DNA of 63,852 bases, the filler included, from Microthyrium microscopicum (Eukaryota): assembly GCA_010405405.1 (NCBI GenBank). It is 17 parts of 6 records of this genome, joined end to end, with 100 filler letters (N's around TTAATTAATTAA, not from the genome) between each part and the next. Parts side by side here need not be neighbours in the genome. Positions count along the whole stretch, not along the records: positions 14,742 to 21,151 come from MU004235.1; 16 more parts are not named here. One strand, written 5' to 3'. Of this stretch, positions 2,115 through 45,014 are shown piece by piece (position 1 is the first letter of the stretch; every line of letters starts with the position of its first letter). Below the pieces are notes generated by a model. The model was given only the letters and a program-made list of their open reading frames with translations, ran no database searches and was not told where the DNA came from. A program made the position numbers and the translations under genes.

Positions 2115-2214
2115 NNNNNNNNNNNNNNNNNNNNNNNNNNNNNNNNNNNNNNNNNNNNTTAATTAATTAANNNNNNNNNNNNNNNNNNNNNNNNNNNNNN
2201 NNNNNNNNNNNNNN

Positions 2215-7642: not shown

Positions 7643-7869
7643 TATAATAATTCCTCTTTATAGGCTTTATAGTAGTATTGTAAGAGAGATTTTATTATAA
7701 GATTACGCGCTAGACCTAAAAGGGTTAGTACGCCTAAGGATCTACTAAGCAAACTTACTTCCTTTATAGATTTATAGCTCTTCTAAATCTTCTTCTCTTT
7801 TTCTCTTATTTATAAATTCTAGAATATAATCTAATTATTTACTTACTCTAAGTTTTATAGCTTATTATA
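7643..7869 (+). repeat. 5' LTR (~227 bp)
   Basis: Inverted ends tataataa...ttattata (RIPed TG...CA). The first 68 bp match 14574-14641. Confidence 0.85.
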
Positions 7870-8479
7870 TAATTTATAAACTATTTAATTATCTACGTAC
7901 TTATACTATATACTCTAGAATTTACTTCTAAAGAAGTACCTATATAGATTAATATTCTATATATATAGTCTTAGACCTTATTAAAGATCCTTTATAGATT
8001 TACTAAATCTATTAGCTCTACTAATCTTTTATCTAATTAAAGTATTAGGATTCTTTAATACTTTTTAACTTATTAATAGTCTAAGTATTAATTATTTTTT
8101 ATCCTTAGTTCTATAGAATACTAAAGTTTATCTTTTATACTATTACTAAATATCTATAATTATACTTAATATACTTACTATTAAAACGCGCTAAATAAAT
8201 AAGTATTTTCTTCTAGTACTTTTCTTTATTATTTATAACTATAGCTAATAAGGCTCCTAACTAATAGACTTAAGTTAATAGCTATATAGCCTACTTACTA
8301 TTCTTAATTACTTATACTTAGCCTAATAATTAGTACCTATTCCTATCTCTTATATACTTACGTTACTTATCTTCATTATATTACTCTTTTGCTATATATA
8401 CTAAGTATTAAAGTAGACTTAATACTTAGGATATAGTATAACTAGATACTACTTAGAAAGTAGTAGATTTAGTAGAGAG

Positions 8480-10310
8480 CATCTTAGAGCTATTAAAATT
8501 ACTAGAACTAGACTTAAGAGCGTTATTAGAAAATAAAGATAAGTTAAAAGATAATTATCTATTAGAATAAGGCTATAAAGATAAAAAAACTAAAGTATTA
8601 AAAGATACTTCTTAAAATACTAGTTAAATAACTTTACTAAACTAAATAAATATAAGAGATAATTAGTTACTAGCTCTTTTCTAACTTAATAATAATACTA
8701 GACTTTCTTTTAGAATATATAAATAGCTAATAGAACTATACTAATAAGCTAAAGGCTCTAGAGTATTACTTATATTAATATCTTACTACTCTATAGTAGT
8801 AAACCTTAATTAACTAGTTACTTTAACTATTAATAAAAATTCTCTAATCTTTTAAGCTACTTAAGTATAAAAGATACTTAGTAAAGAAAGTAATAAGCTA
8901 AAAGACGTAAGAGTATATCTTTATTATAAAGAAAAGTAATTAAACCTTTATTACTACTCTTATTATCTAATTAAATTAGGTATAGACTTAGAACGTCTAT
9001 TAAAAAAAGAGATTACGTTAAATAACTTAGTTATATAGCTCTACGCTTTATTATTAGCCTTTTAAATTATAGTCTACTTCTTTAAAATTAAGTAGAATAT
9101 AAATGCTTATAATATAAATTTAATCTATACTCTTTAGGAAGAAGTTTTAAAAGCTTAAGAAAAAATATAAGACTTAGCTAAAACTAATAATAAATACGTA
9201 AAGTAGATTACTTACCTTAAAACGTAAATTTAAAATAATACTATTATCTTTAAGGAAGTAGTAACTATCTACTAAAAAGTATAAGAGCTATAATATAATA
9301 ATAATTTACTTAAGAAAGTACTTACTACCTATATTAATAAGATTAGTAAATACTATAAAGCTTTATAGAAGAAGGTAGATAAAGCTACTATCCTTTAAGC
9401 CTAAGTTAATACTCTTTAAAAGAAACTCTTAGCTACTAAGATAACTAATCTCTATCTTAATTATAATAAGTTAGTAAATAATAATCTATTCTACTAAATC
9501 TCTCTAACTTAAGATATAGACTAACTTAACTTAAATATACTTCTAAGGGTACTAAACTTATATTAAACTACTTCTTTCTCTAACCTTAACTTAATTAATA
9601 ATACTTCTCTTCTTAAAGTATAGAGTAATAAGCTTTTACTCTTCTTAGAAAAAGATAAGTAGAAGTACTATACTTAGAAAAGTAAAGTACTAAACTATTT
9701 TAATAATAATATATAAGTCTATTTTATAGAAGCCTTTAAGATCTAAATTATCTAAGGAGTAATAAAGGATTAAGCGTTTAGTACTATTAATAAGTAAAGT
9801 AACTATAAGTTACCTAACTTATATTTATCTATAGTAGAGATATAGTCTAATCTAGACTATAAGTATAGTATTAAAGATAACTATATTACTACTAAGACTT
9901 AGCTTAAAAGTTAAGAAGCTATAATAAAGCTTACTAAGAAGCTTAAATAATTCCTAGCTTACTTCTTAAAGAACTTACAAGAGGCTAAGCTTAGTAATTA
10001 AGATAAGATTATTAAAATACGTCCTCTTCTACTTCTAAAATTTATAAAGAGAGTACTTTTTATAAAATTAAAAACATTTATAGATTTCCTTAAGAGCTTA
10101 TATACTATTACTTATTATATTAAATATATCTTCTCTACTAATTTGTAAAGCTATAATAATAATAATTATCTAGTAGCTAAGAGTAGTAAATAAAAACCTA
10201 AGTTTAACTACCCTTTAGATATCTATAATACCTTAAAGGCTAATAATTATTATATAAAGTATAGAGAGAAAGGCTATAGCTATTAGTATAACTTAGTACT
10301 ATATAAGAAT
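8480..10310 (+). pseudogene. gag: Gag relic with C-terminal zinc knuckle (boundaries approximate)
   Basis: De-RIP reading C-V-K-C-G-E-K-G-H-x8-C at ~10250-10305, upstream of the protease. Confidence 0.7.
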
Positions 10311-10809
10311 AAAGATACTTTATTAAATACTAAAATCTAATTAAAAGTTATAGCTATTATTATAAAGTTTACTACTATCTATAATTAAATTACTACTTAA
10401 TCTTCTTAGTTTCTAACTATAGAGAATAATTATAATAAGTATAATTATAGTAATAATATAAAAAACTAAAAGCTCCTTTATAGAGACGCGTAAAGGAGCT
10501 AAATAAGTAAGAAGTATATAATTAGTAATAAAAGAAAGATAAACCTAACCCTAAGCTAGTTTTTATAGAAGAATAAATCTAATATAAGGTTAATAAGACT
10601 ATCTAGTACCTAGAAGTTAACCTCTAATAAGTATTATTCTTAGAGCCTATTATATTTAATAATACTAAGTTAACTATTATTAAGATATTCCTTACCTTTA
10701 TAGTATATAATTTCTATCTTTAAGAAGTAGCTACTATATCTATAGTAAGTAATTAGTAAACTACTTATAATACTACTTTCTTTCTAAAGTAAAGCTACTA
10801 CTTAAAAAT

Positions 10810-13800
10810 TAATATCTTTATAAATATAGAGAGTAGAGTAATAGGAATTATTTACTCTAACTTTATTAAATAATATAGAATTCCTACTATTAATCTTTCT
10901 ACCCTCTAAATTATATAATTAGCTAATAGTAAAGCTATTATAAAGGTTAATAAAGCTACTATAGTTAATATCTATTTAAGAGAGTATATTAAATAAATTT
11001 ACTACTTTATTATAAATGTAGCTAGCTATAATATTATTCTTAGTAACCTATAGATTAACCTCTATAAGGTTACTTTTAAAAAGGAAAAGAAGTAAATTCT
11101 TTTTAATTTAGACTACTACTTAGTATATTACCTACTAGCTAGTTACCTAATCTTTATAGATTATAAAGGCTATTTAGTTAACTTAACTAATCCTTACTTT
11201 AAGAATATTATTATAGTTAGTATTACTACCTTTATTAAACTATTAGAATAAGGCTAATAATTTAGTAAAATCTAGCTTAATAATTTTAAAAATAAAAAAG
11301 ATAAGAAACTTCTAAATCTAGATTCTATACTAAAAGAAGATATTACTATTAATTTAGGTAAGATCTTACCTAAGAACTTTAAAAAGTAGTAAAAGAAGTA
11401 TAATAAACTTTTCTTCTTATAAGAAGAGATTCTTAAATGCTTACTAAAAGAATATTATTATTATATAGATATTTTTAACCTAAAATTAGGTAATAAACTT
11501 ATACTATACTATAGTAAATAGAATTACTCTATTAATATTATCTTAGATACTATAATTCCTAAATGCTACTATAATAGTCTAGATTATTAAGAATTTCTTA
11601 TTATTAAATAATATATTAATTAAATACTTAGTTAAGATTAAGTTTAGGCTAGTAANNNNNNNNNNNNNNNNNNNNNNNNNNNNNNNNNNNNNNNNNNNNN
11701 NNNNNNNNNNNNNNNNNNNNNNNNNNNNNNNNNNNNNNNNNNNNNNNNNNNNNNNNNNNNNNNNNNNNNNNNNNNNNNNNNNNNNNNNNNNNNNNNNNNN
11801 NNNNNNNNNNNNNNNNNNNNNNNNNNNNNNATATCCTAATTAATTATCTTAATAACTTTATTATAGGCTATATAGATAATCTATTAGTTTTTAATAATAC
11901 TAAAGCTAGCTATACTACTTATATTTACTTAGTCTTAGAAGTAATAGATAAAGTAGAATTATACTTAGATATCTAAAAGTATAAATTTAATACCTAATAA
12001 GTTAAATACTTTAGCCTAATTATTACTATATTAAAATAGATCTAGAGAAGGTTTAAAGTATAGTTAATTAGTAATATTCTTCTTTAGTTAAAGACGTTTA
12101 AGCTTTCCTTAGCTTTACTAACTTCTATTACTAATTTATTCTTAAATATTTAAAGACTATAGTACTACTAATAGTACTTATAAAGAAGAATGCTATAGTA
12201 ATCTTTTCTTAGAACCCTAATAAGCTAGAGAAATATATATTTAAGAAGCTAAAAATAGACTTTATATTTACTAAGATATTATACTACTTTAATTATACTA
12301 AAGAAATATAGCTAGAAATAGATACCTTAGATTAGGTTTATACTATAATTTTTTTTTAAAAAGATAAAGATAGAAAGCTTTACTTAGTTATATACTTCTT
12401 AAAGAAGATAACTCTAGTAAAATATAATTATAATATTTATAATAAAGAACTTCTAGCTATTATTTATATATTTAAAGAATAAGAACTAGAGCTATTTAGC
12501 TCTATTAACTCTATTTAAGTATTCTCTAATTACTATAACCTTTAGACGTTTATAATAATAAAACGTCTCTCTTAATAATAAGCTAGATAGGCTAAGTTCC
12601 TTTCTTAGTTTTACTTTAAGATAAAGTACTAACTAAGTATAGCTAATAAAAAGGTAAATATTTTTACTTATTAGTTATAAGATATTTTATAAAGTAATAA
12701 TAATCTTTATATCTTTTAATAAGTTTAACTTTTACTATTTCTATACTAATTTAATATAAATTATATAGTAAAGCTAGCTATATTACTTATTAAACCTACT
12801 TGCTTCTTAATACTATACTTAACTACTATTACTTAGAATAAGTTAGATATTTCTAATTCTATAGGTAAGCTACTTAATCCTATAGGAGAGTCTCTTAGTA
12901 ATAATAAGACGCCTAAGAGTAAGCTACTTAATCTCTTAGGAAATAACTTATTTCTAGATTTTAATAGCAACTAGTTTTTATAGAATATTATAAATATAAT
13001 AAAGTATAATAAAATAATAATTACTATTTACTATACTAAAACTAATTACTAACTCTTTTTATCCTTTAGTACTTTAAAATAAGAGTAAATTAAGCTTAAA
13101 GACTATATAGTAGTTATTAATAAAATAATCCTTTATTATAACTAAATCTTTATCTCTTAAGGAAAGCTTTAGTACTACGCTATATAGAGTATATATAATT
13201 ATAAAGCTATAAGCTATAGTAAAGTAATAATAACTTACTACTACTTATAAGAAAATTATTAGTAGCCTAAAATATTATAGAACGTTAAGAGCTTTATTAA
13301 GAGCTATAAGTATATATTTACTAAACTAGTTTACTAAAAGAAGTAAGGCTTCTTATAATAGTTCTCTTTCCTTAAGCGTATATAGTTTAATATTTCTATT
13401 AATTTTATTATCTTATTATCTTATTATTTATACTAAGGTATAATTTACTAGTATATTATAGTAGTTATTAACTAATATATATAGACCTAATACTTTATCT
13501 TACTACTAGACCTCTTTATAGACTTAATAGTACTAGCCTTTATTAACTATATATAGAAGCTTATTAGCTAGCTATTAATAATTCTTTTAGATTATAGTAG
13601 TTAATTTACTTCTATATTCTAAAAGTACTTATATAAATATATAGATATAATATTCTACTTTAGTATAGCATTTTACCTTAAAACTAATAGCATAATAGAG
13701 ATCTTAGTTACTATACTTAAGTAATTTTTATATATATTTATTAACTAGGATTAAGATAACTAGGTAGCCTTTTTACTCTTTACTAAATTTATAGTTAATT

Positions 13801-14510
13801 CTACTATAAACGCTACTATAGAAGTTATACCTTTTAAAGCTTAAAATAGATTTAACTCTTAATTAGGCCTTAAGTCTTTATATTGCCTCCTAAAACCTAT
13901 AAATGCTTCTATAGTAGCTAATAAGGAAGCTATTAATATAGATATAATATAGAAGGGTTATACTAAGATATATAATTATCTAATAAAGTAATTAATCTAG
14001 ATATAAGCTTAGTAAGTAGAGTATACTAACTATTACTACTATATAGCTTTAGACTTATTACTAGGCAACTAGGTTTACTTAGATATATAGAACTATTCTA
14101 CGTTACGTCCTTTAAAAACTCTAGATAATAAGAATATAGGCTCCTTCTATATAATTAAAAAGATTAATACTATTACTTATAAATTTAATCTCTTTACTTC
14201 TATAAAAATATATAATATCTTCTACGTCTAGGTTCTTTACTATATTATAAATAATACTAAGTTACTTAAGTATACTAACTTACTACTAGTAGTTATTAGA
14301 GAGACTATAAATAATAATAAATAGTCTATTAATACTATTATTAATAGCTACTTTACTAGTTAATATAAGAAGCTATAATATAAGATTAAGTATACTAGTT
14401 ATAATAAAGCTAAATAATATAATTAGATAGTTATTAAGAATACGCTAAAGCTTATTACTAAATTTTACGCTTAGTATCTTAGTAAGCTAAGTTTATATCC
14501 TACCTAGATA
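10810..14510 (+). pseudogene. pol: Pol relic: aspartic protease, reverse transcriptase, RNase H, integrase, chromodomain (boundaries approximate)
   Basis: De-RIP motifs: VDTGSGA (~10820), YDVILGNPW (~11030), YMDDLLVF (~11870), ETDASD and NYDIYDKELLAI (12315-12460), DISIDFI / STAFHPETDG (13390-13690), and chromodomain WSVDAIVDSR...LQYKIKYTGY...EFHARYPGKPGP (14320-14500). Confidence 0.93.
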
Positions 14511-14573
14511 CTACTAATACTAGAGCCTACTAGTAGTAGTATTAATTATAATTCTAATAGTATTCTTACTAAT

Positions 14574-14641
14574 TATAATAATTCCTCTTTATAAGCTTTA
14601 TAGTAGTATTATAAGAGAGATCTTATTATAAGATTACGTAT
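14574..14641 (+). repeat. 3' LTR, partial
   Basis: Matches 7643-7710 apart from transitions. Confidence 0.9.
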
Positions 14642-15339
14642 NNNNNNNNNNNNNNNNNNNNNNNNNNNNNNNNNNNNNNNNNNNNTTAATTAATTAANNN
14701 NNNNNNNNNNNNNNNNNNNNNNNNNNNNNNNNNNNNNNNNNATATATTAAAGTAGATATACTTAATAGAGCTTAATATTAATACTAATCTTATTATACTA
14801 ACTAACTAAAGTAGCCTAGAATATATTCTAAAAAAACTTAAAGAGTTATTAAGTAATAAGCTCTTTTATTCTACTAATAATACTACTTTATATATACTCT
14901 ATATTCTTTTACTATATAAATCTTCTTTAAATCTACTATACTTTTAGTATTAATACTACTTAAATATAAACGCTTAGACTTATAAAGTATTAAGGCGTAT
15001 TAAGATATAAGAGTATAATAATAAGGATAAATTTACTAGTTTATATAAGATTAGTAAGTATATTAAAGTAGTTCCTATTACTTAGTATAAAATTACCTTA
15101 TATTATCTTTACCTAATAACTATTTAGTAAATTATATTAGCTACAAAATTCTATATACTCTTACTATTTACTTACTATATAACTTTAGTACTATATCTTA
15201 CTAAATATTAATAACTTCTATAGTATATCTTTATTCTAAGACTTATATTATCTTTTTAATATTAATAAAGTTATATATACTAATTATAGAGGAATTTAGC
15301 TATTTAATTTTAATATATCCTAATATTTATTTATAATTA

Positions 15340-15690
15340 CTAAGGTTACCTTTACTTAAAAGCATTATAAAAGTATATAAAATAACTTTTATCTCTACTA
15401 ATATAAGGCTAAAAAAGAAATAGATAATATATCTATACTTAGCTTATTAAGCTACTTATTTTTTATATCTTTTTACTATAGTAAAAAAATATCCTCTATA
15501 GAAATTAACCTAATAATCTTACTACTACTAAAATTACTAAAATATATAAAATTACTTCTATCTTTACTAATATAAGGCTAAAAAAGAAATAGATAATATA
15601 TCTATACTTAGCTTATTAAGCTACTTATTTTCTATATCTTTTTATAATAGTAAAAAAAACGTCCTTTATAAGGATTAAATAAGTAACTTT
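15340..15690 (-). repeat. 169-bp tandem units (2 here; 3 at ~30710-31236 and ~34555-35080) with A-box-like, B-box-like and oligo-T motifs
   Basis: atataaggct occurs at 15401/15570 and 34621/34791/34960. Each unit contains the hairpin tagtaacctt-N9-aaggttacta. Confidence 0.85.
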
Positions 15691-15768
15691 ACTACGTATA
15701 GGATTTAAATCTATAACCTTAACTTTATATAATAGTAGAGTTATATACTACTATTATACTAGCATAGT
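15691..15768 (-). ncRNA. tRNA-like cloverleaf relic (copy 1)
   Basis: Max-GC consensus of three copies on the minus strand: ACTACGC TA GCGTAATAGTAGTAT A TAACT-14nt-AGTTA AGGTT ATAGG TTTAAAT CCTAC GCGTAGT. This gives a perfect 7-bp acceptor stem, D-arm/A-box, anticodon-like stem and T-arm/B-box. The anticodon cannot be assigned. Confidence 0.7.
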
Positions 15769-16088
15769 AAAATTTTAAACTAAACTATAATACTAAAGTT
15801 AGAATAAATTTAAAGTTAAGGTTTATAGTTTTTAAATATATACTACTATATACTACTACTACTAATATTTAGTTACTATTTACCTTAATTCTAGCTTTAC
15901 CTAAACTCTCTTACTTAAAATTTATTTAGTAAAAATATATTAGGATTAAAATAAACCTAAGAAAATTCTCTAAAAAAATTCTTAGCTATTTACTTTAACT
16001 CTTAATACTAAAATTTAATATATACTCCTAGTACCTAGCTCTTATTAGCTTTAACTATTAGTATATATATTTAATATCTACTCCCTAA

Positions 16089-16142
16089 TCTAGCTCCTAG
16101 CTCTTAGCTCCTAGCTCCTAGCTCCTAGCTCTTAGCTCTTAG
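16089..16142. repeat. (CTAGCTC)n heptamer microsatellite in family A; length-variable copies at ~31665-31700 and ~35509-35596
   Basis: Direct reading. Confidence 0.85.
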
Positions 16143-16859
16143 TACTTTAACTTTTATATATATTAACTTCTATTTACCTTAACTCTTATCTACCTTAACT
16201 TTTATCTACCTTAACTCCTAATACTAATATATACTTAAGTACTTCTCCTTTTAATATTATAGCTAGTTACTAAATTAAATTTAGTAGTGTATCTTAGTAA
16301 TAAAGCTTAATATTAGTTAAGGTATTTTATTTTTAAAAGTATAAGAACTATACTCTATTTTAATATTATTCTTTATTATTTTTAAATTAATTAACCTTAT
16401 TTAAAGACTATCTTCTATATCTAAGAATAAATAGAAGATAATATATTTAGTAGATATTTCTTAATAATATATTAATCTTATTATAAAACTTAGATAAGGA
16501 GCTAAGGTTTTACTATTATCTTAAGTATAAAGATATTTATTAGTATCTATATATCTATCTATATTTACTTTAACTCTTAATACTAATATTTAATATTTCT
16601 TTCTAGTTTCTAGCTTTTATACTTATATATAAAGTTAACTATTATTTTTAAAGTAGTACTAGTTTACTATACTACTTATAAAAGTAATTATAGTATTATC
16701 TACGTATTAGCTAAGCTTAATATATATATTACTTATATTTATAGCTTTCTTCTTTACTTCTCTTATTCTATACTTCTTTCTTTCTTTTTTACTTTATTAC
16801 TTTTATTTTTTTTTCTTCTACTTTCTACTCTCTATAATAGTTTATATTATAGTAATATA

Positions 16860-19800
16860 TAAAATAAGTAAATAAATAAGTTAATTTTATATAAAAAGTC
16901 TTATTATATATACTAACCTATAAATCTTATTTTAGCTATATTATTATATTAAGTACTTAGTAAGACTTTATAGTTAAGGCCTTTAATATTATTAATTAAG
17001 AAGTAAGTATATAAAGTACTATAGTATATATACTAATAGTAAGATTTAATAATAGTATCTTCTATTTATATTTAGCTATTAATACTTATAATATAGCTAT
17101 CTAGTTATACTTTTATAGTAAAACCTAATATAAATATAGCCTTATTTAGTTATAGTAGCTATATAATTAAAGTTATTACTAATATCCTTAATAATTAGCC
17201 TAATCTTACTATAGACTATAATAGTATTAATTATAAAGTTAGCTATAATAAATACTATTTATATAGTACTAAAAAATACTTTTATATTTATTTTTATATA
17301 AGTAGTTTATAAAAACCTAATATTTAATAAGCTATTACTAAATATAATATATAGACTATTAGCTAGAAATAGTTAAGTAGCTAGCTATAGTTTTTTATTT
17401 ATATATAAGTCTAAACTAAAATTATATCTTAGTTAGTACTAATACTATACTAGTACTAAGGTTATTTAGTAAAAATATAATAACTCTATAGCTTCCTTTA
17501 ATAATAAAGCTAAGTATATACTAGACTCTAAGATTACTTTAAAACTACTATAAATAATAAAAATAGTTACTAAATAACTAGCTAGAAGTATAATAGCGTC
17601 TAATTCTTAAGGCTCTTAGAACTAAGAGTTTAAAGTACTTTATCCTAATAAAGAAGTTTATTAAATAAATTCTTAAGGTATTAGCTTTTAAGTCTTAATA
17701 ATTAGTACTATCTATATAGATAATATAAGCCTAATTATAAATAAAATATATCTTAAAACCTAAATAATAATAATAACTTAGTACTAAAGTTATAATTTAG
17801 ATTATAGTTTAGAACCTAAATAATAAGAATTAACTACTTATTAATTTATATAAATAATATAGAACTATAACTTAGTATAAAATATATATTAATCTTATAC
17901 TATAATTTTATTATATTTTCTTAAGGTAATAATAAAAGAAGTATAAAATATTATTATATTTATCTAAATTAAACCTTAAAAGTATATAAAACTTATAACT
18001 TAGTATAATATACTACTTTAAAATTATATTTTTTATATACTTCTTTATAATAATAGTAAAAAAAATATAGTATACTAATTTAGAGTTATAACTTTTATAT
18101 ATTTTTTTATAATAATAAGAAAGAATTATAGTATACTAGTTTTAGGCTATAGTTTTTATTTACTTCTTAAGCTTTAGTAATAAAAAAAGTATAATATAGT
18201 ATTATACTTATAATAAAAAGAAATATTAAGGTATATATTATATAAGTTATTAATATAGATAAAATTTAAAAACTAGAAATAAAATAACTATATATACTAA
18301 AATACTTAAGGCTAAAAAGATCTAGCTTAGAGATACTAGAACTTTCTAAACTAGAATCTAATATTTAATTTTTATATAATAACTATAAGTAAGAAAGATT
18401 AGAGAATTAAGCTACTACTTACTTAAAATAGACTAGTTACTTAATAGTAGTCTTATATTAATACTAATAACTTTAAGAACTTACTATACGTTATAATTAT
18501 AACCTTAATATTTTAATTACTATTTATAATAATATAGTAATAGTAAGAAATATCTTAATATAAGTAAATAACTTCTAGTCTCTAAGTTAAATATAGTAAC
18601 TAACTAAGCGTTACTTTATTCTTATCTAATTCTATATAATAAATTAAAATATAAATACCTTATATACTAAATCTTTATCTTCCTCTTTTTATATTTACTA
18701 ATACTTAATCTATATTTATAATATCTATTATTATAAGCCTTATAAGTTCTTTACGTAAAGCCTACTATCTATATAAAATAATAGAAAAGTAAATAAAAAA
18801 GTAAATAAAAGAGCTAATAGAAGAGTAAATATAGACTAAACTAGATATATATCTTAAAAAATTACTTAGATTTTATAACTCCCTATAATTAATAATTTTA
18901 CTAAAGCTAATACTAGCTAATATAATAATATAGGATATTAAATTATAGAAAGATTTTAATTCTAATAATATAGACTAGCTATATAACTTTATTTAAACGT
19001 TTATAATTCTATATATATATAGTTAACCTTCCTAACGTTTTATAACTAATAATAATAATAATAATAATAATAATAGTAATAATATTAATAGTAATAATAA
19101 TAATAGTAATAAAGGTCTTAGGTACTTAAATACGTTAGATAAAGATAACTTAGACTTAGAGGATAATATAGACTTAGAGAGTTTAAGTTCTAATAAAAAT
19201 TAATTAGAGTTATAACTCTAATAACTAATAGTTATTATAATTTAAGTTAAATTATAGGATAATATCTATACTTTAAATACTAAAGTAAATAAATAAATTT
19301 AAATTAAGATTAATAAATTTAATATTTAACTTCTTTATTATATTTACTACTAATATAACTCTTTTTTACTAATACTAACTTATAATAATAAGAATATAAT
19401 AACTTACTATAGTAATAATTATAATTAAGATATAAATAGATTAAAAATATATATAGAAATAATACTAGTATAAGTATAAATAATAATAATATATATAATA
19501 TTAATAGTATTATTTAATAAACTATACTTAAAAAGTTAACTAGACTAAACCTTTAGTACTCTAAATCCTTAGCTAACTCTAGGCTAACTTTAAGCTAATC
19601 TTAAGCTAACTCTATATATAGGTAAGCTAATATTTAAACCCTAGGCTAGTATTTAAACTTAAGCTAATCCTAAGCTAACTCTAAGCTAATCCTAAGCTAA
19701 CCCTAAGCTAACTCTAAGCTAATCCTATATATAAGCAAGCTAATATTTAAACCTTAGGCTAATATTTAAACCCTAGGCTAGTATTTAAACTATATACTAA

Positions 19801-21151
19801 CTTAGGCTAACTTTATACTAATTCTATACTAACTTAACGTTTAGTATTAAAAATAAAATAGAAGGTAATATATAGAAATAAGTTAAATTTCTTAGAAATA
19901 TATATACTACTTTAGTACTTTATATAAATTATAAAATATTCTAAATAAAGCTTAAGATATATATCTTTAACTCTATGTAAGAAAGTTTTAATAAAGGTAT
20001 AATTCTTTATATAATTACTAACCTCTTTTATAGGCTTAGTTATATATAATAATCTAGTTTAATACTATTTTAAGATATTAAATAACTAGTCTAATATTTA
20101 CTAAATAAAGCCTACTAGATTAATATTATTATATTAAGTAAATTACTAGTTTAAATTATAATTTAATAATTTTTAAACTTATAGAACTTAGTAAACTCTA
20201 TAGTTTAATCTTAGTACTTAGTAGTAAAAGTACTTTAAGGAGTAGTTTACTTTTAGTAGTTAATAAGTATAATTAGTTAACGTAGATACTTTATTTACTT
20301 AATCTCGTTATAAATTTAAGTATAAACTAACTACTAATCTTATAGTTATTAGTAAGAGTAGTACGCTTAAGAGTAGCTTTAGTACTACTTATCTTATAAA
20401 GAGTAATTCTAATAGTAGATATTATAGTTAAATATTAGTAAAACTCTAATTATTATTAAAGACCTTTAAACTCTTAAACTACTTAATTAGCTTAATAATA
20501 AAATTATTAATAGCTTCCTTACTAAGCTTTACGAAAAGGCTAAGTCTAAACTTACTAAATAGATAAAAATAGTAAAAACCTTAATTAAAGATAATATCTT
20601 ATAATATTATATACTTAATACCTATTAGTTTCTTAAGATATAATAATAAAATAATATTAAAAAGATTACTTACTAAATAAAGCGCTAAAAAATTAGTAAA
20701 AAAAATCTTCTTAGTATTTATAAACTCTTTATTCTAATTTATTAAGATAGTTACTAGACTCTACTAACTATTCTTTCTTAATAATATTAAGTACGTTAGT
20801 ATAATTCCTTATTTACTAGTAAAGAACCTATTCTTACTTTAGCTAAAGAAATACTTTAATATAAGTTAGATAATACTTAAGATAAGAGTAAATAGATATT
20901 TAAGAAAGTAGAGAATAGTTATTAATAAAACTCTTTAGATTATAGTACCTTTATCCTTATAAATACTTAGGCTACTTTCTATACTAATAACTTACCTAAT
21001 ATTCTTCTTAACTAATATAGTAAAGTAATATAATAACTAATTAGTTTAATTATCTTTTATAGTAGCTTAAAAGGTAACTTTAACTTAGAGGCCTAGTATA
21101 ATAGCTTTTATCTAAAAACTCTATAAAATATTTTTAACTATCCTTCTTATA
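16860..21151 (+). pseudogene. Multi-exon gene relic: unknown N-terminal part, E/M/Q-rich helical stretch, poly-Asp/Ser acidic tract, C-terminal Ulp1 domain from 20449 (could be more than one gene)
   Basis: Several GT(A)AGT...CTAAY...AG intron-like blocks. (AAT)n at 19048-19110 reads as a RIPed GAY run (GAT survives at ~36740). Ulp1 motifs start at 20449. Confidence 0.6.
19560..19844 (+). repeat. 11-bp GCTAACCCTAG and 19-bp GCTARTATTTAAACCCTAG minisatellite, probably intronic; other copies at 1715-1990 (-), 37245-37501, 60760-61014
   Basis: Unit number differs among the four copies. The block ends in tactaac...tttag. Confidence 0.85.
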
Positions 21152-21251
21152 NNNNNNNNNNNNNNNNNNNNNNNNNNNNNNNNNNNNNNNNNNNNTTAAT
21201 TAATTAANNNNNNNNNNNNNNNNNNNNNNNNNNNNNNNNNNNNNNNNNNNN

Positions 21252-22453
21252 TTTATCTACTCTACTAGATTTATCTTTTCTAGTAGTAGACGTAATTAAG
21301 TTAAACTATACTTATTCTTTAAGGTTAATATTTAAAGAGTAGAATAGCTTTATACCTTTATAATTCCTAAATAGTATAATAGTAAAAAAGAATATAATAT
21401 AGGCTATCTAAGTATATAAGTCCTATATACTATTAACTAAGAACTAATATAAACTATAATATTTAATATTTTATAATAAGGAATAGACGCTACGCCTTAG
21501 TTTTAAATAATTATAAATCTTAAACCTAAATAAGATTTATATATATAGAGTCTATAATTAAGATAGTACTATACTTTATTTATCTTTATTAGCTATATAT
21601 AAAGGTAGGATTAATATCTTAACGTTCTCTAAGTACTTTAAAACTAATTATATTAAATATAGATATTCTATTTATATTTTTAATTAGGAATATAATATTA
21701 TTTAGCCTATTCTAAACCTATATAAGTATAAGAATATCTATTTTAGAGTTCTTATTTAGAAAGGTAAGTTATTATTAAGATTTAGTATTTACGTTTATTT
21801 TCCTAATTTAATATTCTATAGTAAAAAGTAGTATCTTTATATAAAATAACTTAAATAGTAGTACTAATATATCTTATTTCTAGCTATTAGGAATATTTAT
21901 CTAATTAATATTCTATAGTATATACCTTTTAATAAATATTATATATATATAATAGCTATAGCGCAATAAAAAATAAGAAATTAAGATAACTTAAAGCTAG
22001 GCCTAGCTAATATATTCTTTATAATCTAAGGCAAATATCTTAAATCTCTATAGAATTATATACTAGACTATAATAAAAGATTCTAAGGCGTAAACTTAAA
22101 CTAAAAAGATACTACTATTAAAAATCTTAAAGATAAATAAGCTAATATTATAACCTATCTATTAGATTAGATAATAAGTTTAGATATATTTAAGAATCCT
22201 ATTCTTATACTTATATTATATAATAGTAAACTATTATAAAAAGCTAATAACTTTATCTAAGGATTTAGTAACTACTAAGAGTATATAAATTACTATTTTA
22301 ACTTTTTATTTATTAGACTATACTATTTATATATTAATCTTATATATAAAAATATACTATTTTACTAAGATACTTATAGTAATAAACTTTCTACTAAGGG
22401 TATTATACTAGTATTAAAATAAAAATATAGTAAAAATTAGATTTAGTATTATA
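21252..22453 (+). pseudogene. RIPed long-ORF relic of an uncharacterised fungal repeat-associated protein
   Basis: One frame reads over ~300 codons with only RIP-type stops: YDxDS...IYVYFP...WYxxILFPA...LQHMP...LESLW...YVDLxxE. Confidence 0.45.
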
Positions 22454-22553
22454 NNNNNNNNNNNNNNNNNNNNNNNNNNNNNNNNNNNNNNNNNNNNTTA
22501 ATTAATTAANNNNNNNNNNNNNNNNNNNNNNNNNNNNNNNNNNNNNNNNNNNN

Positions 22554-30008: not shown

Positions 30009-31236
30009 TATATATAAGTTAGATTTAACTCTCTTTTACAGTATACTAGTTAGTAGTATATTATTTAGAATAGAAAGTAGATTAAAATTATAAGTTAATA
30101 TAATATATATAACTTTGCTTAGAGATTAATTAAAGAAATAGGTATAGTTAGTAATATACTATTATATAAAGAGAGGGGTACACTGCTCTTAATAAGATTA
30201 TATACTATATCTAACTTATAAAATAAAGCTTAAATGCTATAATATTACTAAGATAAACTATATACTTTTAAGAACTTTTTATTTTATTATTTAGAATTTA
30301 TAAATTATAAATATAGATTATTTTAAAGTAATCTTTAAGAAATACCTATAATATAAAGTTATAGTCTATTCTAAATATAGCTATATAGTTCTACTAATAT
30401 TATTTTCTAGATATATTAAAAAATACTATAAAAGCTTATTNNNNNNNNNNNNNNNNNNNNNNNNNNNNNNNNNNNNNNNNNNNNTTAATTAATTAANNNN
30501 NNNNNNNNNNNNNNNNNNNNNNNNNNNNNNNNNNNNNNNNTATTTACTTACTATATAACTTTAGTACTATATCTTACTAAATATTAATAACTTTTATAGT
30601 ATATTTTTATTCTAAGACTTATATTACTTCTTTAACGTTAATAAAGTTATATATACTAATTATAAAAGAATTTAGCTATTTAATTTTAATATATCCTAAT
30701 ATCTACTTATAACTACTAAGGTTACTTCTACTTAAAAGTACTATAAAAGTATATAAAATTACTTTTATCTTTACTAATATAAAGCTAAAAAAGAAATAGA
30801 TAATATATCTATACTTAGCTTATTAAGCTACTTATTTTCTATATCTTTTTACTATAGTAAAAAAATGTCCTCTATAAAGATTAACTTAGTAACCTTACTA
30901 CTACTAAGGTTACTAAAATATATAAAATTACCTCTATCTCTACTAATATAAGGCTAAAAAATAAATAGATAATATATCTATATTTAGCTTATTAAGCTAC
31001 TTATTTTCTATATCTTTTTACTATAGTAAAAAAATATTCTCTATAGGAATTAACTTAGTAACCTTATTACTACTAAGGTTACTAAAATATATAAAATTAC
31101 TTCTATTTCTATTAATATAAGGCTAAAAAATAAATAGATAATATATCTATACTTAGCTTATTAAGCTACTTATTTTCTATATTTTTTTATAATAGTAAAA
31201 AAAAACGTTCTTTATAAGAATTAAATAGATAACTCT

Positions 31237-31314
31237 ACTACGTATAGAATTTAAACTTATAATCTTAACTTTATATAATAGTAGAATTATATATTACTAT
31301 TACGCTAGTATAGT
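31237..31314 (-). ncRNA. tRNA-like cloverleaf relic (copy 2)
   Basis: Aligns without gaps to 15691-15768. Confidence 0.7.
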
Positions 31315-33759
31315 AAAATTTTAGACTAAATTATAGTACTAAAGTTAAAATAAATTTAGAGTTAGGGTTTATAGTTTTTAAATATATACTACTATATATT
31401 ACTACTACTAATATTTAGCTACTATCTACCTTAATTCTAGCTCTACTTAAATTCTCTTACCTAAAATTTACTTAGTAAAAATATACTAGAGTTAAAATAA
31501 ACCTAAGAAAATTTTCTAAAAAAATTCCTAGCTATTTACTTTAACTCCTAATATTAATATTTAGTATCTATTCTTAATACTAAAATCTAATATATACTAC
31601 TCCTAGCACCTAGCTCCTATTAGCTTTAACTACTAGTATATATATTTAATATTTACTTCTTAATTTAGCTTTTAGCTTCTAGCTCTAGCTTCTAGCTCTT
31701 TAACTTCTATATACGTTAACTCTTATTTACTTTAACTCTTATTTATCTTAACTCTTAATACTAATATATACTTAAGTATTTCCTTTTTTAGTATTATAGC
31801 TAGTTACTAAATTAAATTTAGTAGTACGTCTTAGTAATAAAGCTTAATATTAGTTAAGGTATTTTATTTTTAAAAGTATAAAAACTATACTTTATTCTAA
31901 TATTATTCTTTATTATTTCTAGATTAATTAATCTTATTTAGAGACTATTCTCTATATATAGAAATAAATAGGAAATAATATATTTAGTAGATATTTCCTA
32001 ACTATATATTAATCTTATTATAAAACTTAGATAGAGAGCTTAGAAGCATATTTATAAATAAATTAGCTTAAGTAAATAATATTTCTAATATTAATTTCTA
32101 TAAGGTTCTACTATTACTTTAAGTATAAAGATACTTATTAGTATCTATATATTTATCTATATTTACTTTAACTCCTAATACTAATATTTAATATTTCTTT
32201 CTAGTTTCTAGCTTCTATACTTATATATAAAGTTAACTATTATTCTTAAAGTAGTATTAGTTTACTATACTACTTATAAAAGTAATTATAGTATTATCTA
32301 TATACTAGCTAAGCTTAATATATATATTATTTATATTTATAGCTTCCTTCTTTACTTTTCTTATTCTATACTTTTCTCTTTTTCTTTTACTCTACTACTT
32401 TTATCCTTTTCTCTTCTACTCTCTACTCTTTATAATAGTTTATATTATAGTAATATATAAAATAAGTAAATAAGTAAGTTAATTTTATATAGAAAGTCTT
32501 ACTATATATACTAACTTATAAACCTTATTTTAGCTATATTACTATATTAAGTACTTAGTAAAACTTTATAGTTAAGGCTTTTAATATTATTAATTAGAAA
32601 GTAAGTATATAAAGTACTATAGTATATATACTAATAGTAAGATTTAATAATAGTATTTTCTATTTATATCTAGCTATTAATACTTATAATATAGCTATCT
32701 AGTTATATCTTTATAGTAAAACCTAATATAAATATAGCCTTATTTAGTTATAGTAGCTATATAATTAAAGTTATTACTAATATCCTTAATAATTAGTCTA
32801 AATAGTAGACATTCATAAGCTAGAGTTAGGTTAGTCTATATACAAAATGTTAGACTATTAAAAGTTTATATTTTTAGTAGAGAAATATCTTTATACCTTT
32901 ATAACTTCTCTAATACTTACTTAATAAATATACTCTAAAGCTTATATTATTTAAGTTAACGTTCTTTATTAAATATATATAATTTTATATAATATAGTAC
33001 TCTTATTAGGTAAATAGATTTAATAGTACAAAGTTAGGACTTAGTAAAAATTCTATTATTAAAATGCTACGTTAGGAAGACTTAGTAAAGTAACTTACTA
33101 ATAGAATATAACCTTTCCTTTAACTATTAGTAATAATACTTACTAAACTAATACCTAATAGTATAATACTACTCTATTTTATAGCTTTATATATTATTTA
33201 CTTATACTTACTCTATTTAAAGTTAACTCTCTATTTAATTCTAGTAGTCTTAGTAACTTACTCTAAAGAGCTCTTTAAAAACTATAATCTAGCTTTTTTA
33301 ATATTCCTTCTAGGCTATAGTTTTTAAGAAGCCTATAATAATATCTAGATTACTAATATACTACGCTATACTACGCTATACTATAATTAAGCTAAAAGTT
33401 AATAGTCTTAAATAAATATATTTATTCTATATACTATAGTTACTAACTATTATAATATAAGACTACTAAATAACTAGGTTATAGACTTTAGATAGCTTTT
33501 TAGTACCTTATTATAAGACTAGGATATAGTAATAATAAGTACTACCCTAATCTATTATAGTAAATATTAAATAATTTATATATACTAAAGAAGATAGTAT
33601 AGATAATAATTAAGATACAAAAGATAAAGGAAGAAGTATATTATTATAGGGTTTATTAGTTTTCCTAACCCTAGCTAAATCTTTACCTAACCTTAAACTA
33701 ATATATTACTAACTCTACTCTTTAATACTACTACTTTTTCCTACCTAGTAATTATAGAA

Positions 33760-34480
33760 ATATTATTCTTTTATATTCTTTAATAATAAACTCTATACAA
33801 AATAAAACTACCTATTCTACTATTAATTATACTAGTTAAAGACTTATAATAGCAATATACTACTTATAAAATATAGTAAAACTATAATAAATATATATAT
33901 AACTAATACTTTAATAAATTAGCCTTTAGAGGAATAAGTAAGTTTCTAAAAGAATTATAAGATATATTAAAGTAGACGCGCTTAATAGAGCTTAATATTA
34001 ATACTAATCTTATTATATTAACTAACTAAAGTAGCCTAAAATATATCCTAAAAAAACTTAAAGAGTTATTAAGTAATAAGCTCTTCTATCCTACTAATAA
34101 TACTACTCTATATATACTCTATATTTTTCTACTATATAAACCTTCTTTAGGTTTACTATACTTTTAGTATTAATACTACTTAAATATAAAGGCTTAGATT
34201 TATAAAGCATTAAGGCATATTAAGATATAGGAGTATAATAATAAGGATAAATTTACTAGTTTATATAAGATTAGTAAGTATATTAAAGTAGTTCCTATTA
34301 CCTAGTACAAAATTACTTTATATTATCTTTATATAATAACTATCTAGTAAATTATATTAGCTACGAAATTTAATATACCTTTACTATTTACTTACTATAT
34401 AACTTTAGTACTATATTTTATTAAATATTAATAACTTTTATAATATATCTTTATTCTAAGACTTATATTACCTTTTTAAT
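33760..34480 (+). pseudogene. ~240-codon ORF relic of unknown function in family A (3' part also at 14742-15260)
   Basis: A single frame with only RIP-type stops. No motif recognised. Confidence 0.35.
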
Positions 34481-35080
34481 ATTAATAAAGTTATATATAC
34501 TAATTATAGAGGAATTTAGCTATTTAATTTTAATATATCTTAATATCTACTTATAACTATTAAGGTTACCTTTACTTAAAAGTACTATAAAAGTATATAA
34601 AATTACTTCTATCTTTACTAATATAAGGCTAAAAAAGAAATAGATAATATATCTATACTTAGCTTATTAAGCTACTTATTTTCTATATCTTTTTACTATA
34701 GCAAAAAAATATTCTTTATAGAAATTAACTTAGTAACCTTACTACTACTAAGATTACTAAAATATATAAAATTACCTCTTATCTCTACTAATATAAGGCT
34801 AAAAAAGAAATAGATAATACATCTATATTTAGCTTATTAAGCTACTTATTTTCTATATCTTTTTACTATAGTAAAAAAATATCCTCTATAGAAATTAACC
34901 TAGTAACTTTACTACTACTAAGGTTACTAAAATATATAAAATTATCTCTATCTCTACTAATATAAGGCTAAAAAATAAATAGATAACGTATCTATACTTA
35001 GCTTATTAAGCTACTTATTTTCTATATCTTTCTATAATAGTAAAAAAAACGTCCTCTATAAGGATTAAATAAGTAACCTT

Positions 35081-35158
35081 ACTATACGTAAGATTTAAAT
35101 CTATAACCTTAACTTTATATAATAGTAGAGTTATATACTATTATTATACTAGCGTAAT
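35081..35158 (-). ncRNA. tRNA-like cloverleaf relic (copy 3)
   Basis: Aligns without gaps to 15691-15768. Confidence 0.7.
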
Positions 35159-36331
35159 GAAATTTTAAACTAAACTATAGTACTAAAGTTAGAATAAATT
35201 TAGAATTAGGGTTTATAGTTTTTAAATATATATTACTATATACTACTACTACTAATATTTAGTTACTATCTATCTTAATTCTAGCTCTATCTAAACTTTC
35301 CTACCTAAAATTTACTTAATAAAAATATACTAAAGTTAAAATAAACCTAAGAAAATTCCCTAAAAAAATTCCTAGTTATTTACTTTAACTCCTAATACTA
35401 ATATTTAGTATTTACTTTTAATATTAAAATCTAATATATACTACTCCTAGTACCTAGCTCCTATTAGCTTTAACTACTAGTATATATATTTAATATTTAC
35501 TTCCTAATCTAGCTCCTAGCTCCTAGCTCCTAGCTTCTAGCTCTTAGCTTCTAGCTCCTAGCTCCTAGCTTCTAGCTCCTAGCTCCTAGCTTCTAGTACT
35601 TTAACTTTTATATATATTAACTCCTATCTACCTTAACTCCTATCTACCTTAACTCCTAATACTAATACGTACTTAAGTACTTCTCCTTTTAGTATTATAG
35701 CTAGTTACTAAATTAAATTTAGTAGTATATTTTAGTAATAAAGCTTAATATTAGTTAAGGTATCTTATTTTTAAAAGTATAAGAACTATACTCTATTCTA
35801 ATATTATTCTTTATTATTTCTAGATTAATTAATTTTATTTAAAAACTATCTTTTATATCTAGAAATAAATAGGAGATAATATATTTAGTAAATATTTCCT
35901 AACGATATATTAATCTTATTATAAGACTTAGATAAAAAGCTTAGAGGTATATTTATAGATAAATTAGCTTAAGTAAATAATATTTTTAATATTAATTTCT
36001 ATAAAGTTCTATTATTATCTTAGGTATAAAAATACTTCCTAGTATCTATATATCTATCTATATTTACTTTAACTCCTAATACTAATATTTAATATTTCTT
36101 TCTAGTTTCTAGCTTTTATACTTATATATAAAGTTAACTATTATTCTTAAAGTAGTACTAGTTTATTATACTACTTATAAAGGTAATTATAGTATTATCT
36201 ACGTATTAGCTAAGCTTAATATATATATTACNNNNNNNNNNNNNNNNNNNNNNNNNNNNNNNNNNNNNNNNNNNNTTAATTAATTAANNNNNNNNNNNNN
36301 NNNNNNNNNNNNNNNNNNNNNNNNNNNNNNN

Positions 36332-40040: not shown

Positions 40041-40104
40041 GTAGGGGTCTAGCTAAGGTATTCTAATTTAAAAAGTTAATAAAAGTAAAAAATAAAAAAA
40101 TCTT

Positions 40105-45008: not shown

Positions 45009-45014
45009 CTACAG

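What the first reader, a model, noticed from the sequence alone, without database searches (positions are those of the whole stretch)
15340..15768. tRNA-like cloverleaf followed by a variable-number array of Pol III-type units inside the Ulp1 element
Seen on the minus strand in 3 copies: a 78-nt cloverleaf with a perfect 7-bp acceptor stem but an enlarged anticodon arm (14 nt between the 5-bp stems), followed by a second B-box-like tail (de-RIP GTTCGATCC) and an oligo-T run. Next come 169-bp units (2 here, 3 at 30710-31236 and 34555-35080), each with an A-box-like TAGTAGAGATAG (de-RIP TGGCGGAGATGG), a 10-bp hairpin, a degenerate B-box and GAGGAC-oligo-T. Inference: the element carries its own cluster of tRNA-derived Pol III/TFIIIC units. 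These could be small RNAs, a SINE head, a chromatin barrier against heterochromatin, or scars of tRNA-targeted insertion as in Dada transposons. Together with a SUMO protease this could be a two-part anti-silencing module.
Basis: partly seen in the sequence, partly recalled or inferred. Interest (0 to 1): 0.72.

Follow-up and report, generated by a model that had tools for sequence, protein, structure and literature searches.

The report
Dead tRNA relic beside 169-bp minisatellite
A real but mutation-killed copy of a tRNA gene, followed by an ordinary 169-base tandem repeat, sits inside a many-copy junk repeat of a fungal genome; it is a fossil, not a working RNA-gene cluster.

Summary
The cloverleaf is real. 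Infernal's tRNA model hits 15690-15768 (-) at 32.4 bits (cut-off 29), the only tRNA hit in the window. Reversing RIP-type changes across the three copies gives a 7/7 Watson-Crick acceptor stem, and the site is the single best of 2,902 offsets. Copies B and C no longer hit the model. ARAGORN finds nothing at default settings, and its relaxed calls are at chance level.

The 169-bp array is real and varies in copy number. Its units are not tRNA- or Pol III-type. Only their last ~45 nt match the tRNA 3' end, trailer and T-run; the unit body does not. No unit has a RIP-compatible B box.

No Ulp1/C48 domain was found in 1-44813.

The window is a chain of 17 small contigs joined by N-linkers, so the three copies lie on two contigs. 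The surrounding repeat is many-copy and RIP-mutated.

Verdict: a RIP-killed tRNA-gene relic plus a minisatellite grown from its trailer, carried passively in a larger repeat. It is ordinary, and its route of origin (captured gene or SINE head) is unresolved.

The parts
15690..15768 (-). tRNA-like segment, copy A (79 nt: acceptor 7, D arm 4-7-4, anticodon arm 5-14-5, variable loop 5, T arm 5-7-5, discriminator A; no CCA)
   Evidence: RF00005 32.4 bits, model 1-71 of 71, E=0.0023 in 21.5 kb and 0.0069 in the whole window. Pairs: 16 WC + 3 GU + 2 mismatches of 21.
15652..15689 (-). 3' trailer (~30 nt) and T8 run, copy A: candidate former Pol III terminator
   Evidence: Runs of T>=8 occur 0.23 per kb per strand in this DNA.
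15483..15651 (-). 169-bp unit A1 (full)
   Evidence: alignment of 8 units. Its last ~45 nt are homologous to the tRNA 3' end, trailer and T-run.
15375..15482 (-). Truncated last unit A2 (about the first 108 nt of a unit, then diverges)
31236..31314 (-). tRNA-like segment, copy B (more RIP damage)
   Evidence: 12 WC + 5 GU + 4 mismatches. No tRNA-model hit at E<=10 in a 201-nt search.
30750..31235 (-). Copy B: trailer + T9, units B1 (31028-31196) and B2 (30859-31027), and truncated B3 (from 30858 downwards)
35080..35158 (-). tRNA-like segment, copy C
   Evidence: 13 WC + 5 GU + 3 mismatches. No tRNA-model hit at E<=10.
34594..35079 (-). Copy C: trailer + T8, units C1 (34873-35041) and C2 (34703-34872), and truncated C3 (from 34702 downwards)
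14742..17203 (-). Shared repeat R, copy A. One end is at ~17198-17203, where A and B stop matching. The other end is cut by the contig start.
   Evidence: Self-BLAST and junction reading. 678 short contigs of run X1 lie on it, with changes almost all transitions.
30541..32801 (-). Shared repeat R, copy B (cut by the contig start at 30541)
33962..36231 (-). Shared repeat R, copy C (cut by the contig end at 36231; its extent below 33962 is unknown)

Best explanation
This is a fossil. An ordinary tRNA-type gene was carried as a passenger inside a longer repeat (R, at least 2.5 kb). It had internal A and B boxes, a 7-nt insertion or intron just after the anticodon, a trailer of about 30 nt and an oligo-T terminator.

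The ancestral working is inferred from textbook Pol III biology, not shown here. TFIIIC would bind the A and B boxes. Pol III would transcribe the tRNA plus trailer and stop at the T-run.

Downstream, a 169-bp minisatellite arose. Its unit ends with a second copy of the tRNA's 3' acceptor strand, trailer and T-run. Unequal crossing-over or replication slippage between these ~45-nt homologies therefore expands and contracts the array. Units are gained and lost whole: the middle unit is missing in copy A, and one public contig has one unit fewer.

Because the tRNA lay inside a long, multiplied repeat, RIP (C-to-T and G-to-A mutation of repeats) hit it along with everything around it. All three copies now have damaged stems and a damaged B box. 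The units have no promoter of their own. Nothing here is likely to be transcribed by Pol III or bound by TFIIIC today.

Shown: tRNA origin, RIP-type decay, array structure and copy-number variation, many-copy status of the repeat. Inferred: former transcription, the mechanism of array growth, and passive multiplication.
For: tRNA origin:
- RF00005 gives 32.4 bits against a cut-off of 29, full length. It is the only tRNA hit at E<=10 in 63.9 kb.
- All 17 variable columns among the three copies of the 79 nt are transitions.
- Different copies keep complementary halves of the same G:C pairs. The RIP-reversed consensus has a 7/7 WC acceptor stem. All 21 of 21 pairs are WC or restorable by a RIP-type reversal; slid registers give 6-13 of 21.
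- Sliding the pairing mask over 2,902 offsets of the shared repeat, the true site is the single best for restorable pairs (21, runner-up 19) and for G:C pairs (7, runner-up 6).
- A and B boxes at the canonical places are 11/11 RIP-compatible in all three copies. Only 7-9 and 7-8 of 11 are exact today.
- No CCA follows the discriminator, so the sequence is gene-like.

Array:
- TRF finds period 169.
- Units are positional orthologues between copies, and the middle unit is absent from A.
- One contig of run X1 skips 168 bp, from 15483 to 15652.
- Unit-to-head similarity lies only in the last ~48 nt.

RIP and repeat status:
- GC is 0.13-0.27 across 1-45000.
- 181 of 196 variable ungapped columns of the shared 1.5 kb are transition-type.
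- 678 contigs of run X1 lie on 14742-17260. The differences are A>G 55, T>C 90, C>T 88, G>A 28, against 9 transversions.
Against: - Only one of three copies reaches the tRNA model; B and C give nothing at E<=10.
- ARAGORN finds nothing at default settings. Its relaxed calls are worthless: 7 and 85 calls in the real DNA against means of 11.25 and 96.9 in simulations.
- The RNA fold of copy A is not a cloverleaf and is not unusually stable (z = -1.10; 25 of 200 shuffles fold as well).
- The anticodon loop has 14 nt, not 7. The formal anticodon ACT is not a normally used one (my knowledge), and the isotype could not be named.
- Two RIP-invariant pattern scans of the metagenome collection found no compatible un-mutated tRNA or element.
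- The T8 run lies ~30 nt behind the tRNA, further than I recall as usual. T-runs are common in this DNA: T>=7 occurs 0.71 per kb per strand.
- The class of repeat R is unknown. No protein domain was found in it, and one of its ends is cut by contig ends. 'Passenger' is therefore inferred only from the >=1.4 kb of shared sequence upstream of the tRNA in all three copies.
Confidence: 0.6

Rival explanations
1. The tRNA-like segment is the head of a long (~1.2 kb) tRNA-headed SINE-type retroposon. Its body would hold the 169-bp repeat. It would have inserted into repeat R before R multiplied. Pol III would have transcribed it from the tRNA promoter, and a partner LINE's reverse transcriptase would have copied it.
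For: - An earlier, unchecked note on this genome describes a 1.2-kb tRNA-headed non-coding retroposon sharing a LINE tail (e1-7502723).
- In copy C the distance from the tRNA start (35158) to the end of the A/C homology (33962) is 1,196 nt. That end is also where contig 14742-21151 begins, and assemblers often break at repeat borders (my knowledge).
- The layout of tRNA-related region, then tRNA-unrelated region, with an oligo-T tract, fits the way fungal tRNA-SINEs are recognised (PMC5063351, passages read).
Against: - All three copies share at least 1.4 kb upstream of the tRNA, so no independent insertion is seen.
- No target-site duplication is evident at the candidate ends (my reading).
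- Summed contig depth shows no step at the tRNA start; it is high on both sides, 15246-16337. This is a poor measure.
- None of the 6 listed loose ends of run X1 lies at ~15768; 49 rows across all four runs are not shown.
- No LINE reverse transcriptase and no shared tail were found in the window.
- The oligo-T terminator ~30 nt after the tRNA would stop Pol III long before 1.2 kb.
- No sequence look-alike of this stretch was found in earlier notes. A RIP-mutated copy would escape that word-based look-up.
Confidence: 0.25
2. The transposon carries a working or once-working cluster of tRNA-derived Pol III/TFIIIC units. These would act as small-RNA genes or as a chromatin barrier against heterochromatin, paired with a SUMO protease as an anti-silencing module.
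For: - A genuine tRNA-derived segment with RIP-compatible A and B boxes exists.
- Every unit ends in an oligo-T run.
- tRNA genes can act as heterochromatin barriers through TFIIIC in yeasts (my knowledge, not checked here).
Against: - The units lack any RIP-compatible B box. Their one A-box-form match per unit is at chance density, about 2 per kb per strand.
- The unit body is unrelated to the tRNA.
- No Rfam family hits the units.
- The single B box is mutated in all three copies, including the invariant C of the T-loop.
- The loci themselves are fully RIP-mutated (GC ~0.18), so they did not protect even themselves.
- No Ulp1/C48 domain in 1-44813.
Confidence: 0.04
3. Chance: AT-rich RIP-like DNA forms many hairpins, and the cloverleaf is a coincidence.
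For: - The fold z-score is only -1.10.
- ARAGORN relaxed calls are as frequent in simulated DNA.
- Only one of three copies hits the model.
Against: - E=0.0069 over the whole window times all 4,227 families, and the only tRNA hit.
- The site is unique best of 2,902 offsets, and the RIP-reversed consensus restores 7 G:C pairs.
Confidence: 0.03

Closest known systems
Fungal tRNA-derived SINEs (Mg-SINE of Magnaporthe; AfuSINE2 families of Aspergillus fumigatus, PMC5063351, abstract and passages read)
   Same: A tRNA-related region with Pol III A and B boxes, followed by tRNA-unrelated sequence and an oligo-T tract. Non-coding and multi-copy.
   Different: The tRNA is not at the 5' end of the repeated unit: at least 1.4 kb of shared upstream sequence. 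No target-site duplications were seen and no LINE-like tail was found. AfuSINE2 elements are 140-493 bp (paper); this candidate would be ~1.2 kb with an internal 169-bp tandem repeat. The T-run lies ~30 nt after the tRNA.
RIP-mutated repeat families in AT-rich blocks of ascomycete genomes (for example the survey in PMC4943192; search listing and start of abstract seen only)
   Same: GC ~0.18, differences between copies almost all C/T and G/A, many copies, coding capacity destroyed.
   Different: None in kind. The particular feature here is that a short Pol III gene was mutated along with its carrier. By my recollection of the Neurospora literature, such genes are too short to be RIP targets on their own.
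VNTR-bearing composite retroposons such as hominid SVA (recalled, not checked here)
   Same: A Pol III-derived or SINE-derived part next to a variable-number tandem repeat inside one non-coding repeat.
   Different: No evidence of retroposition here. The unit length (169 bp) and the origin of the repeat (from the tRNA trailer) differ. This is an analogy only.
tRNA genes as TFIIIC-dependent heterochromatin barriers (fission-yeast centromeres; recalled, not checked here)
   Same: A tRNA gene embedded in repeated, silenced DNA.
   Different: The B box is mutated in all copies, and the gene is itself inside the mutated block, not at its edge.
Dada DNA transposons, which target tRNA and small-RNA genes
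   Same: An association of a mobile repeat with a tRNA sequence.
   Different: No transposase domain and no terminal inverted repeats were identified. The tRNA is uninterrupted except for 7 nt in the anticodon loop.

Membership tests
tRNA (Rfam RF00005) | Covariance-model score at or above the curated cut-off (29 bits), full-length match | tested here: met
   Copy A: 32.4 bits, model 1-71 of 71. Copies B and C: no hit at E<=10. The default fast-filter run missed copy A as well.
tRNA (Rfam RF00005) | Four-stem cloverleaf kept through evolution (here: restored when RIP changes are reversed) | tested here: met
   21 of 21 pairs are WC or RIP-restorable. The acceptor stem is 7/7 WC in the three-copy consensus. 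Slid registers give 6-13 of 21. The site is unique best of 2,902 offsets.
tRNA (Rfam RF00005) | 7-nt anticodon loop with a usable anticodon | tested here: not met
   The loop has 14 nt, identical in all three copies. Read as a 7-nt intron at the canonical site it gives anticodon ACT (from a relaxed ARAGORN call that is itself at chance level).
tRNA (Rfam RF00005) | Detected by a dedicated tRNA finder at normal stringency | tested here: not met
   ARAGORN gives 0 genes in the window and 0 for the RIP-reversed consensus at default settings.
Pol III type-2 transcription unit | A box and B box at canonical positions plus a downstream oligo-T terminator (consensus motifs recalled) | tested here: inconclusive
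   tRNA-like part: both boxes are 11/11 RIP-compatible but only 7-9 of 11 exact today. T8/T9 follows ~30 nt downstream. 169-bp units: no RIP-compatible B box in any of 8 units or 3 trailers, so the units do not qualify.
tRNA-derived SINE (features as used in PMC5063351) | tRNA-related region at the 5' end of the element | tested here: not met
   All 3 copies share at least 1.4 kb upstream of the tRNA. Only 3 copies are available, so an old nested insertion cannot be excluded.
tRNA-derived SINE (features as used in PMC5063351) | Flanking target-site duplications | tested here: inconclusive
   None is evident by eye at the candidate ends. The 3' end is not defined because of contig breaks.
tRNA-derived SINE (features as used in PMC5063351) | 3' region shared with a partner LINE | not testable with these tools
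   No LINE was found in the window. No whole genome is held.
Ulp1-carrying transposon ('Ulp1 element') | Peptidase_C48 (Ulp1/SENP) domain encoded in the element | tested here: not met
   Six-frame read-through with X at stops against Pfam: none in 1-13001, 13000-21300, 21252-26703, 26804-38802 or 38903-44813. Not scanned: 55323-63852. RIP lowers sensitivity.
Dada transposon | Dada-type transposase, terminal inverted repeats, insertion at a fixed site inside tRNA or small-RNA genes | tested here: inconclusive
   No transposase-like Pfam hit on the contigs with the module. The tRNA is not split by a large insert. Terminal repeats were not searched because the ends are unknown.

The most novel reading that the evidence does not exclude
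Before RIP killed it, the repeat carried its own live tRNA gene. Such a gene could have served the element, for example as a TFIIIC-bound insulator that delayed heterochromatin spread, or as a landing beacon. The terminator-ended 169-bp units would have been a spacer array. A milder version is a fungal SVA-like composite retroposon of ~1.2 kb: tRNA head plus VNTR.
Probability: 0.05. Interest if true: 0.65.

Novelty: new member of a known kind. Interest (0 to 1): 0.2.

Why it matters
It matters little for biology. It is one more RIP-degraded repeat, with a tRNA-gene relic and a minisatellite inside.

It is useful in three small ways:
- A tRNA origin can still be proven at 23% GC, by combining a covariance model with reversal of RIP changes across copies.
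- Relaxed tRNA finders and A/B-box spotting are uninformative in such DNA.
- This window is a chain of unplaced contigs, so any claim about what lies 'inside' what needs care.

If the SINE reading proved right, it would add a long, VNTR-bearing tRNA-SINE to the short list of fungal SINEs.

Tried and rejected
- ARAGORN with introns at 90% and 80% thresholds called the consensus and copies A and B. The same settings give 7 and 85 calls in the real AT-rich DNA, against means of 11.25 and 96.9 in 20 Markov simulations. I rejected this as evidence.
- Thermodynamic folding of copy A (z = -1.10) and of unit B2 (z = -1.83) is not informative.
- RIP-invariant IUPAC scans of metagenome contigs gave 0 hits for the T arm + acceptor + trailer (49 nt).
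- No whole genome is held.
- Earlier-notes look-ups by place and by sequence found nothing for this stretch. A word search for Ulp1 found only other genomes.
- Sequencing runs: no RNA holder is listed, so nothing can be said on expression. Runs X6 and X7 (other organism labels) hold only small shares. The X7 pieces are ~37 nt and look spurious. X6 has one 199-nt contig at 91% identity on the array.
- The joint 15392->16843 (skips 1,450 bp) rests on one contig with a 26-nt side. It is too weak to use.
- Repeat R as the LTR of the Gypsy relic on the preceding contig: no R-like sequence lies where that element's 5' LTR should be. I rejected this, weakly.
- tRNA copied from a mature tRNA (primer read-through or retro-copy): no CCA follows the discriminator. 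Rejected.
- The 1,160-bp spacer between B and C (32802-33961) matches nothing else in the window, so the far end of R stays undefined.
- ORFs of the GC-normal contig have no Pfam hit.

Full report
WHAT THE WINDOW IS. The first 45 kb and the last 8.5 kb have GC of about 0.13-0.27. A block at 45-55 kb is GC-normal. The window is not one continuous piece. Sixteen linkers of the form N44-TTAATTAATTAA-N44 join 17 small contigs, and there are four further plain N gaps. The finding's copy A lies on contig 14742-21151. Copies B and C lie 3,844 bp apart, in the same orientation, on contig 30541-36231. No whole genome is held.

THE CLOVERLEAF.
- ARAGORN at default settings and Rfam with its fast filters found nothing.
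- With permissive filters, the Rfam tRNA model RF00005 hits 15690-15768 on the minus strand. The score is 32.4 bits against a curated cut-off of 29. The match is full length, with extra bases only in the anticodon loop. E is 0.0023 for 21.5 kb.
- Over the whole window this is the only tRNA hit at E<=10, with E=0.0069.
- The homologous segments of copy B (31236-31314) and copy C (35080-35158) give no tRNA hit, even in 201-nt searches at E<=10.

RIP REVERSAL.
- The three 79-nt copies differ at 17 columns, and all 17 are transitions.
- In the register of the model, copy A has 16 Watson-Crick pairs, 3 G-U pairs and 2 mismatches out of 21. B has 12, 5 and 4. C has 13, 5 and 3.
- Different copies keep complementary halves of the same pairs. 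When every C/T column is read as C and every G/A column as G, the acceptor stem becomes 7/7 Watson-Crick.
- All 21 pairs are then Watson-Crick or restorable by one more RIP-type reversal. Registers slid by 1-3 give 6-13 of 21.
- I slid the pairing mask over all 2,902 offsets (both strands) of the 1,529 ungapped columns shared by the three copies. The true site is the single best for restorable pairs (21, next 19). It is also the single best for G:C pairs in the consensus (7, next 6).
- Chance is therefore excluded for practical purposes. This was a tRNA-type sequence.

WEAK OR VOID LINES OF EVIDENCE.
- ARAGORN with introns calls the consensus at a 90% threshold, and copies A and B at 80%. The same settings give 7 and 85 calls in the real AT-rich DNA. 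They give means of 11.25 and 96.9 calls in 20 first-order Markov simulations. I discard this evidence.
- The minimum-energy fold of copy A is not a cloverleaf, and z is only -1.10.
- The anticodon loop has 14 nt (CTACTATTATATAA, identical in all copies). Read with a 7-nt intron at the canonical place, the anticodon is ACT. RIP reversal would also allow GCT, ACC or GCC. The 5-nt variable loop speaks against a serine-type tRNA (my knowledge). The isotype stays open.
- No CCA follows the discriminator, so the sequence looks like a gene and not like a copy of a mature tRNA.

PROMOTER BOXES. I used consensus motifs recalled from memory: TRGCNNAGTGG for the A box and GGTTCGANNCC for the B box. At the canonical places of the tRNA-like part, both boxes are 11/11 compatible with RIP-type decay in all three copies. 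Today only 7-9 of 11 (A box) and 7-8 of 11 (B box) match exactly. The T-loop C is a T in all three copies. In RIP-invariant form such boxes occur about 2 per kb per strand in this DNA. On their own they mean nothing.

THE ARRAY.
- TRF finds period 169-170 at 30744-31203 (2.7 copies, 93%) and 34588-35095 (3.0 copies, 89%). It does not list copy A.
- Alignment shows that A has one full unit (15483-15651) plus a truncated last unit. B and C each have two full units plus the same truncated last unit.
- First units resemble first units and last units resemble last units, so A simply lacks the middle unit.
- One short contig of public run X1 skips 168 bp between 15483 and 15652, which is a form with one unit fewer still.
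- Each full unit has a 9-12-bp hairpin and ends in GAGGAY/GAGAAT plus T7.
- The last ~45 nt of a unit (3' hairpin arm, trailer-like stretch, T-run) are homologous to the tRNA's 3' acceptor strand, trailer and T8.
- In a purine/pyrimidine alignment, which RIP cannot disturb, the 169 nt ending at the T8 score 49.5 and 46.0 against units. The shuffle mean is 36.6 +/- 4.2-4.5. With the last 48 nt removed the score falls to 21.5, against a shuffle mean of 27.8 +/- 4.3.
- The units are therefore not decayed tRNAs. No unit or trailer has a RIP-compatible B box. No Rfam family hits a unit.
- The array is best read as a minisatellite. It is seeded by a duplicated trailer and resized by unequal exchange.

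THE CARRIER.
- The three copies share far more than the module: A 14742-17203, B 30541-32801 and C 33962-36231.
- One end of this repeat (R) is defined at ~17198/32796, where A and B stop matching. The other end is lost in contig ends. The 1,160 bp between B and C match nothing else in the window.
- At least 1.4 kb upstream of the tRNA is common to all copies.
- Of 196 variable ungapped columns in the shared 1.5 kb, 181 are transition-type.
- 678 short contigs of run X1 lie on 14742-17260 at >=80% identity. Their differences are almost all transitions: A>G 55, T>C 90, C>T 88, G>A 28, against 9 transversions. R is therefore a many-copy, RIP-mutated family in the source organism.
- Six-frame translations with X at stops gave no Pfam domain on the contigs with the module.
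- Elsewhere in the window there are Gypsy pol relics: RT_RNaseH_2 at about 12237-12611 and SH3_Tf2-1 at about 14064-14237, both on the plus strand. There is also a hAT dimerisation domain at about 44315-44536.
- No Ulp1/Peptidase_C48 domain was found in 1-44813. The stretch 55323-63852 was not scanned. RIP lowers the sensitivity of this test. The 'Ulp1 element' is not verified.

HOW IT MOST LIKELY WORKED. An ordinary Pol III type-2 gene lay inside a longer repeat, with a tRNA-type promoter, a short trailer and an oligo-T stop. Once the repeat multiplied, RIP mutated the whole block, including this short gene. By my recollection of the Neurospora literature, such a gene would be too short to be a RIP target on its own. 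Today the stems and the B box are damaged in every copy and the units have no promoter. I expect no Pol III transcription and no TFIIIC binding. I give this 0.6.

THE MAIN RIVAL. The tRNA may be the head of a long SINE-type retroposon that inserted into R before R multiplied (0.25).
- For it: an earlier unchecked note reports a 1.2-kb tRNA-headed retroposon in this genome (e1-7502723). The distance from the tRNA start to the end of the A/C homology is 1,196 nt in copy C.
- Against it: the upstream sequence is shared. I saw no target-site duplication. There is no step in depth and no listed loose end at the tRNA start. No LINE lies in the window. The T8 only ~30 nt after the tRNA would stop Pol III early.
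- The features that define fungal tRNA-SINEs were taken from PMC5063351 (abstract and passages).

RELATIVES ELSEWHERE. Two RIP-invariant pattern scans of the metagenome collection found nothing. Seven DNA runs from four studies hold part of the stretch. No RNA holder is listed, which says nothing about expression.

NOVELTY AND SCORE. A RIP-killed repeat that holds a tRNA-gene relic and a minisatellite is a new member of a known kind. I did not search the literature specifically for RIP-mutated tRNA genes beyond, whose listings showed nothing on point. I make no claim that it is unreported. Interest is 0.2.

Noticed in passing
window 2115-62698 (16 places): The window is 17 small contigs chained by 100-bp linkers (N44-TTAATTAATTAA-N44). 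Consecutive contigs sometimes continue the same repeat: 58763-60115 then 60216-62598 parallel 17206-18558 then 19017-21151. The order may therefore reflect scaffolding, but adjacency is not certain.
   Followed up: partly
window 44914-45008: Sixteen perfect AACCCT telomere repeats start the GC-normal contig 44914-55222, so that contig is a chromosome end. It is followed by many different tandem repeats (periods 19, 24, 46, 88, 143-159, 152, 188 bp). Its three longest ORFs (216-333 aa) have no Pfam hit.
   Followed up: partly
window 19571-19835, 37243-37447, 60799-61003, 1715-1985: The neighbouring repeat (17206-21151 and its copies) holds arrays of 11-bp and 19-bp units such as TAAGCTAACCC. 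These contain a telomere-like CCCTAA core.
   Followed up: no
window 40105-40921 and 40932-41748: An 817-bp stretch is repeated at 100% identity on either side of a 10-N gap, inside otherwise RIP-mutated DNA. It looks like an assembly artefact rather than a young duplication.
   Followed up: no
window ~12237-12611 and ~14064-14237 (+): RIP-degraded Ty3/Gypsy pol relic: RT_RNaseH_2 at E=1.3e-10 and SH3_Tf2-1 at E=4e-6, on contig 5751-14641.
   Followed up: partly
window ~44315-44536 (+): hAT-family dimerisation domain (E=1.6e-6) in a long, little-interrupted reading frame on contig 38903-44813. This is a less degraded hAT transposase relic.
   Followed up: no
window 16090-16216, 31666-31757, 35508-35658: Upstream of the tRNA-like segment, each copy of the repeat has arrays of a 7-bp unit (CTAGCTC, 6-13 copies) and a 16-bp unit, with copy number differing between copies.
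   Followed up: no
window 25786-26602: Tandem array of 94-bp (and 133/185/279-bp) units, 5.8 copies, on contig 25264-26703. It is unrelated to the 169-bp array.
   Followed up: no
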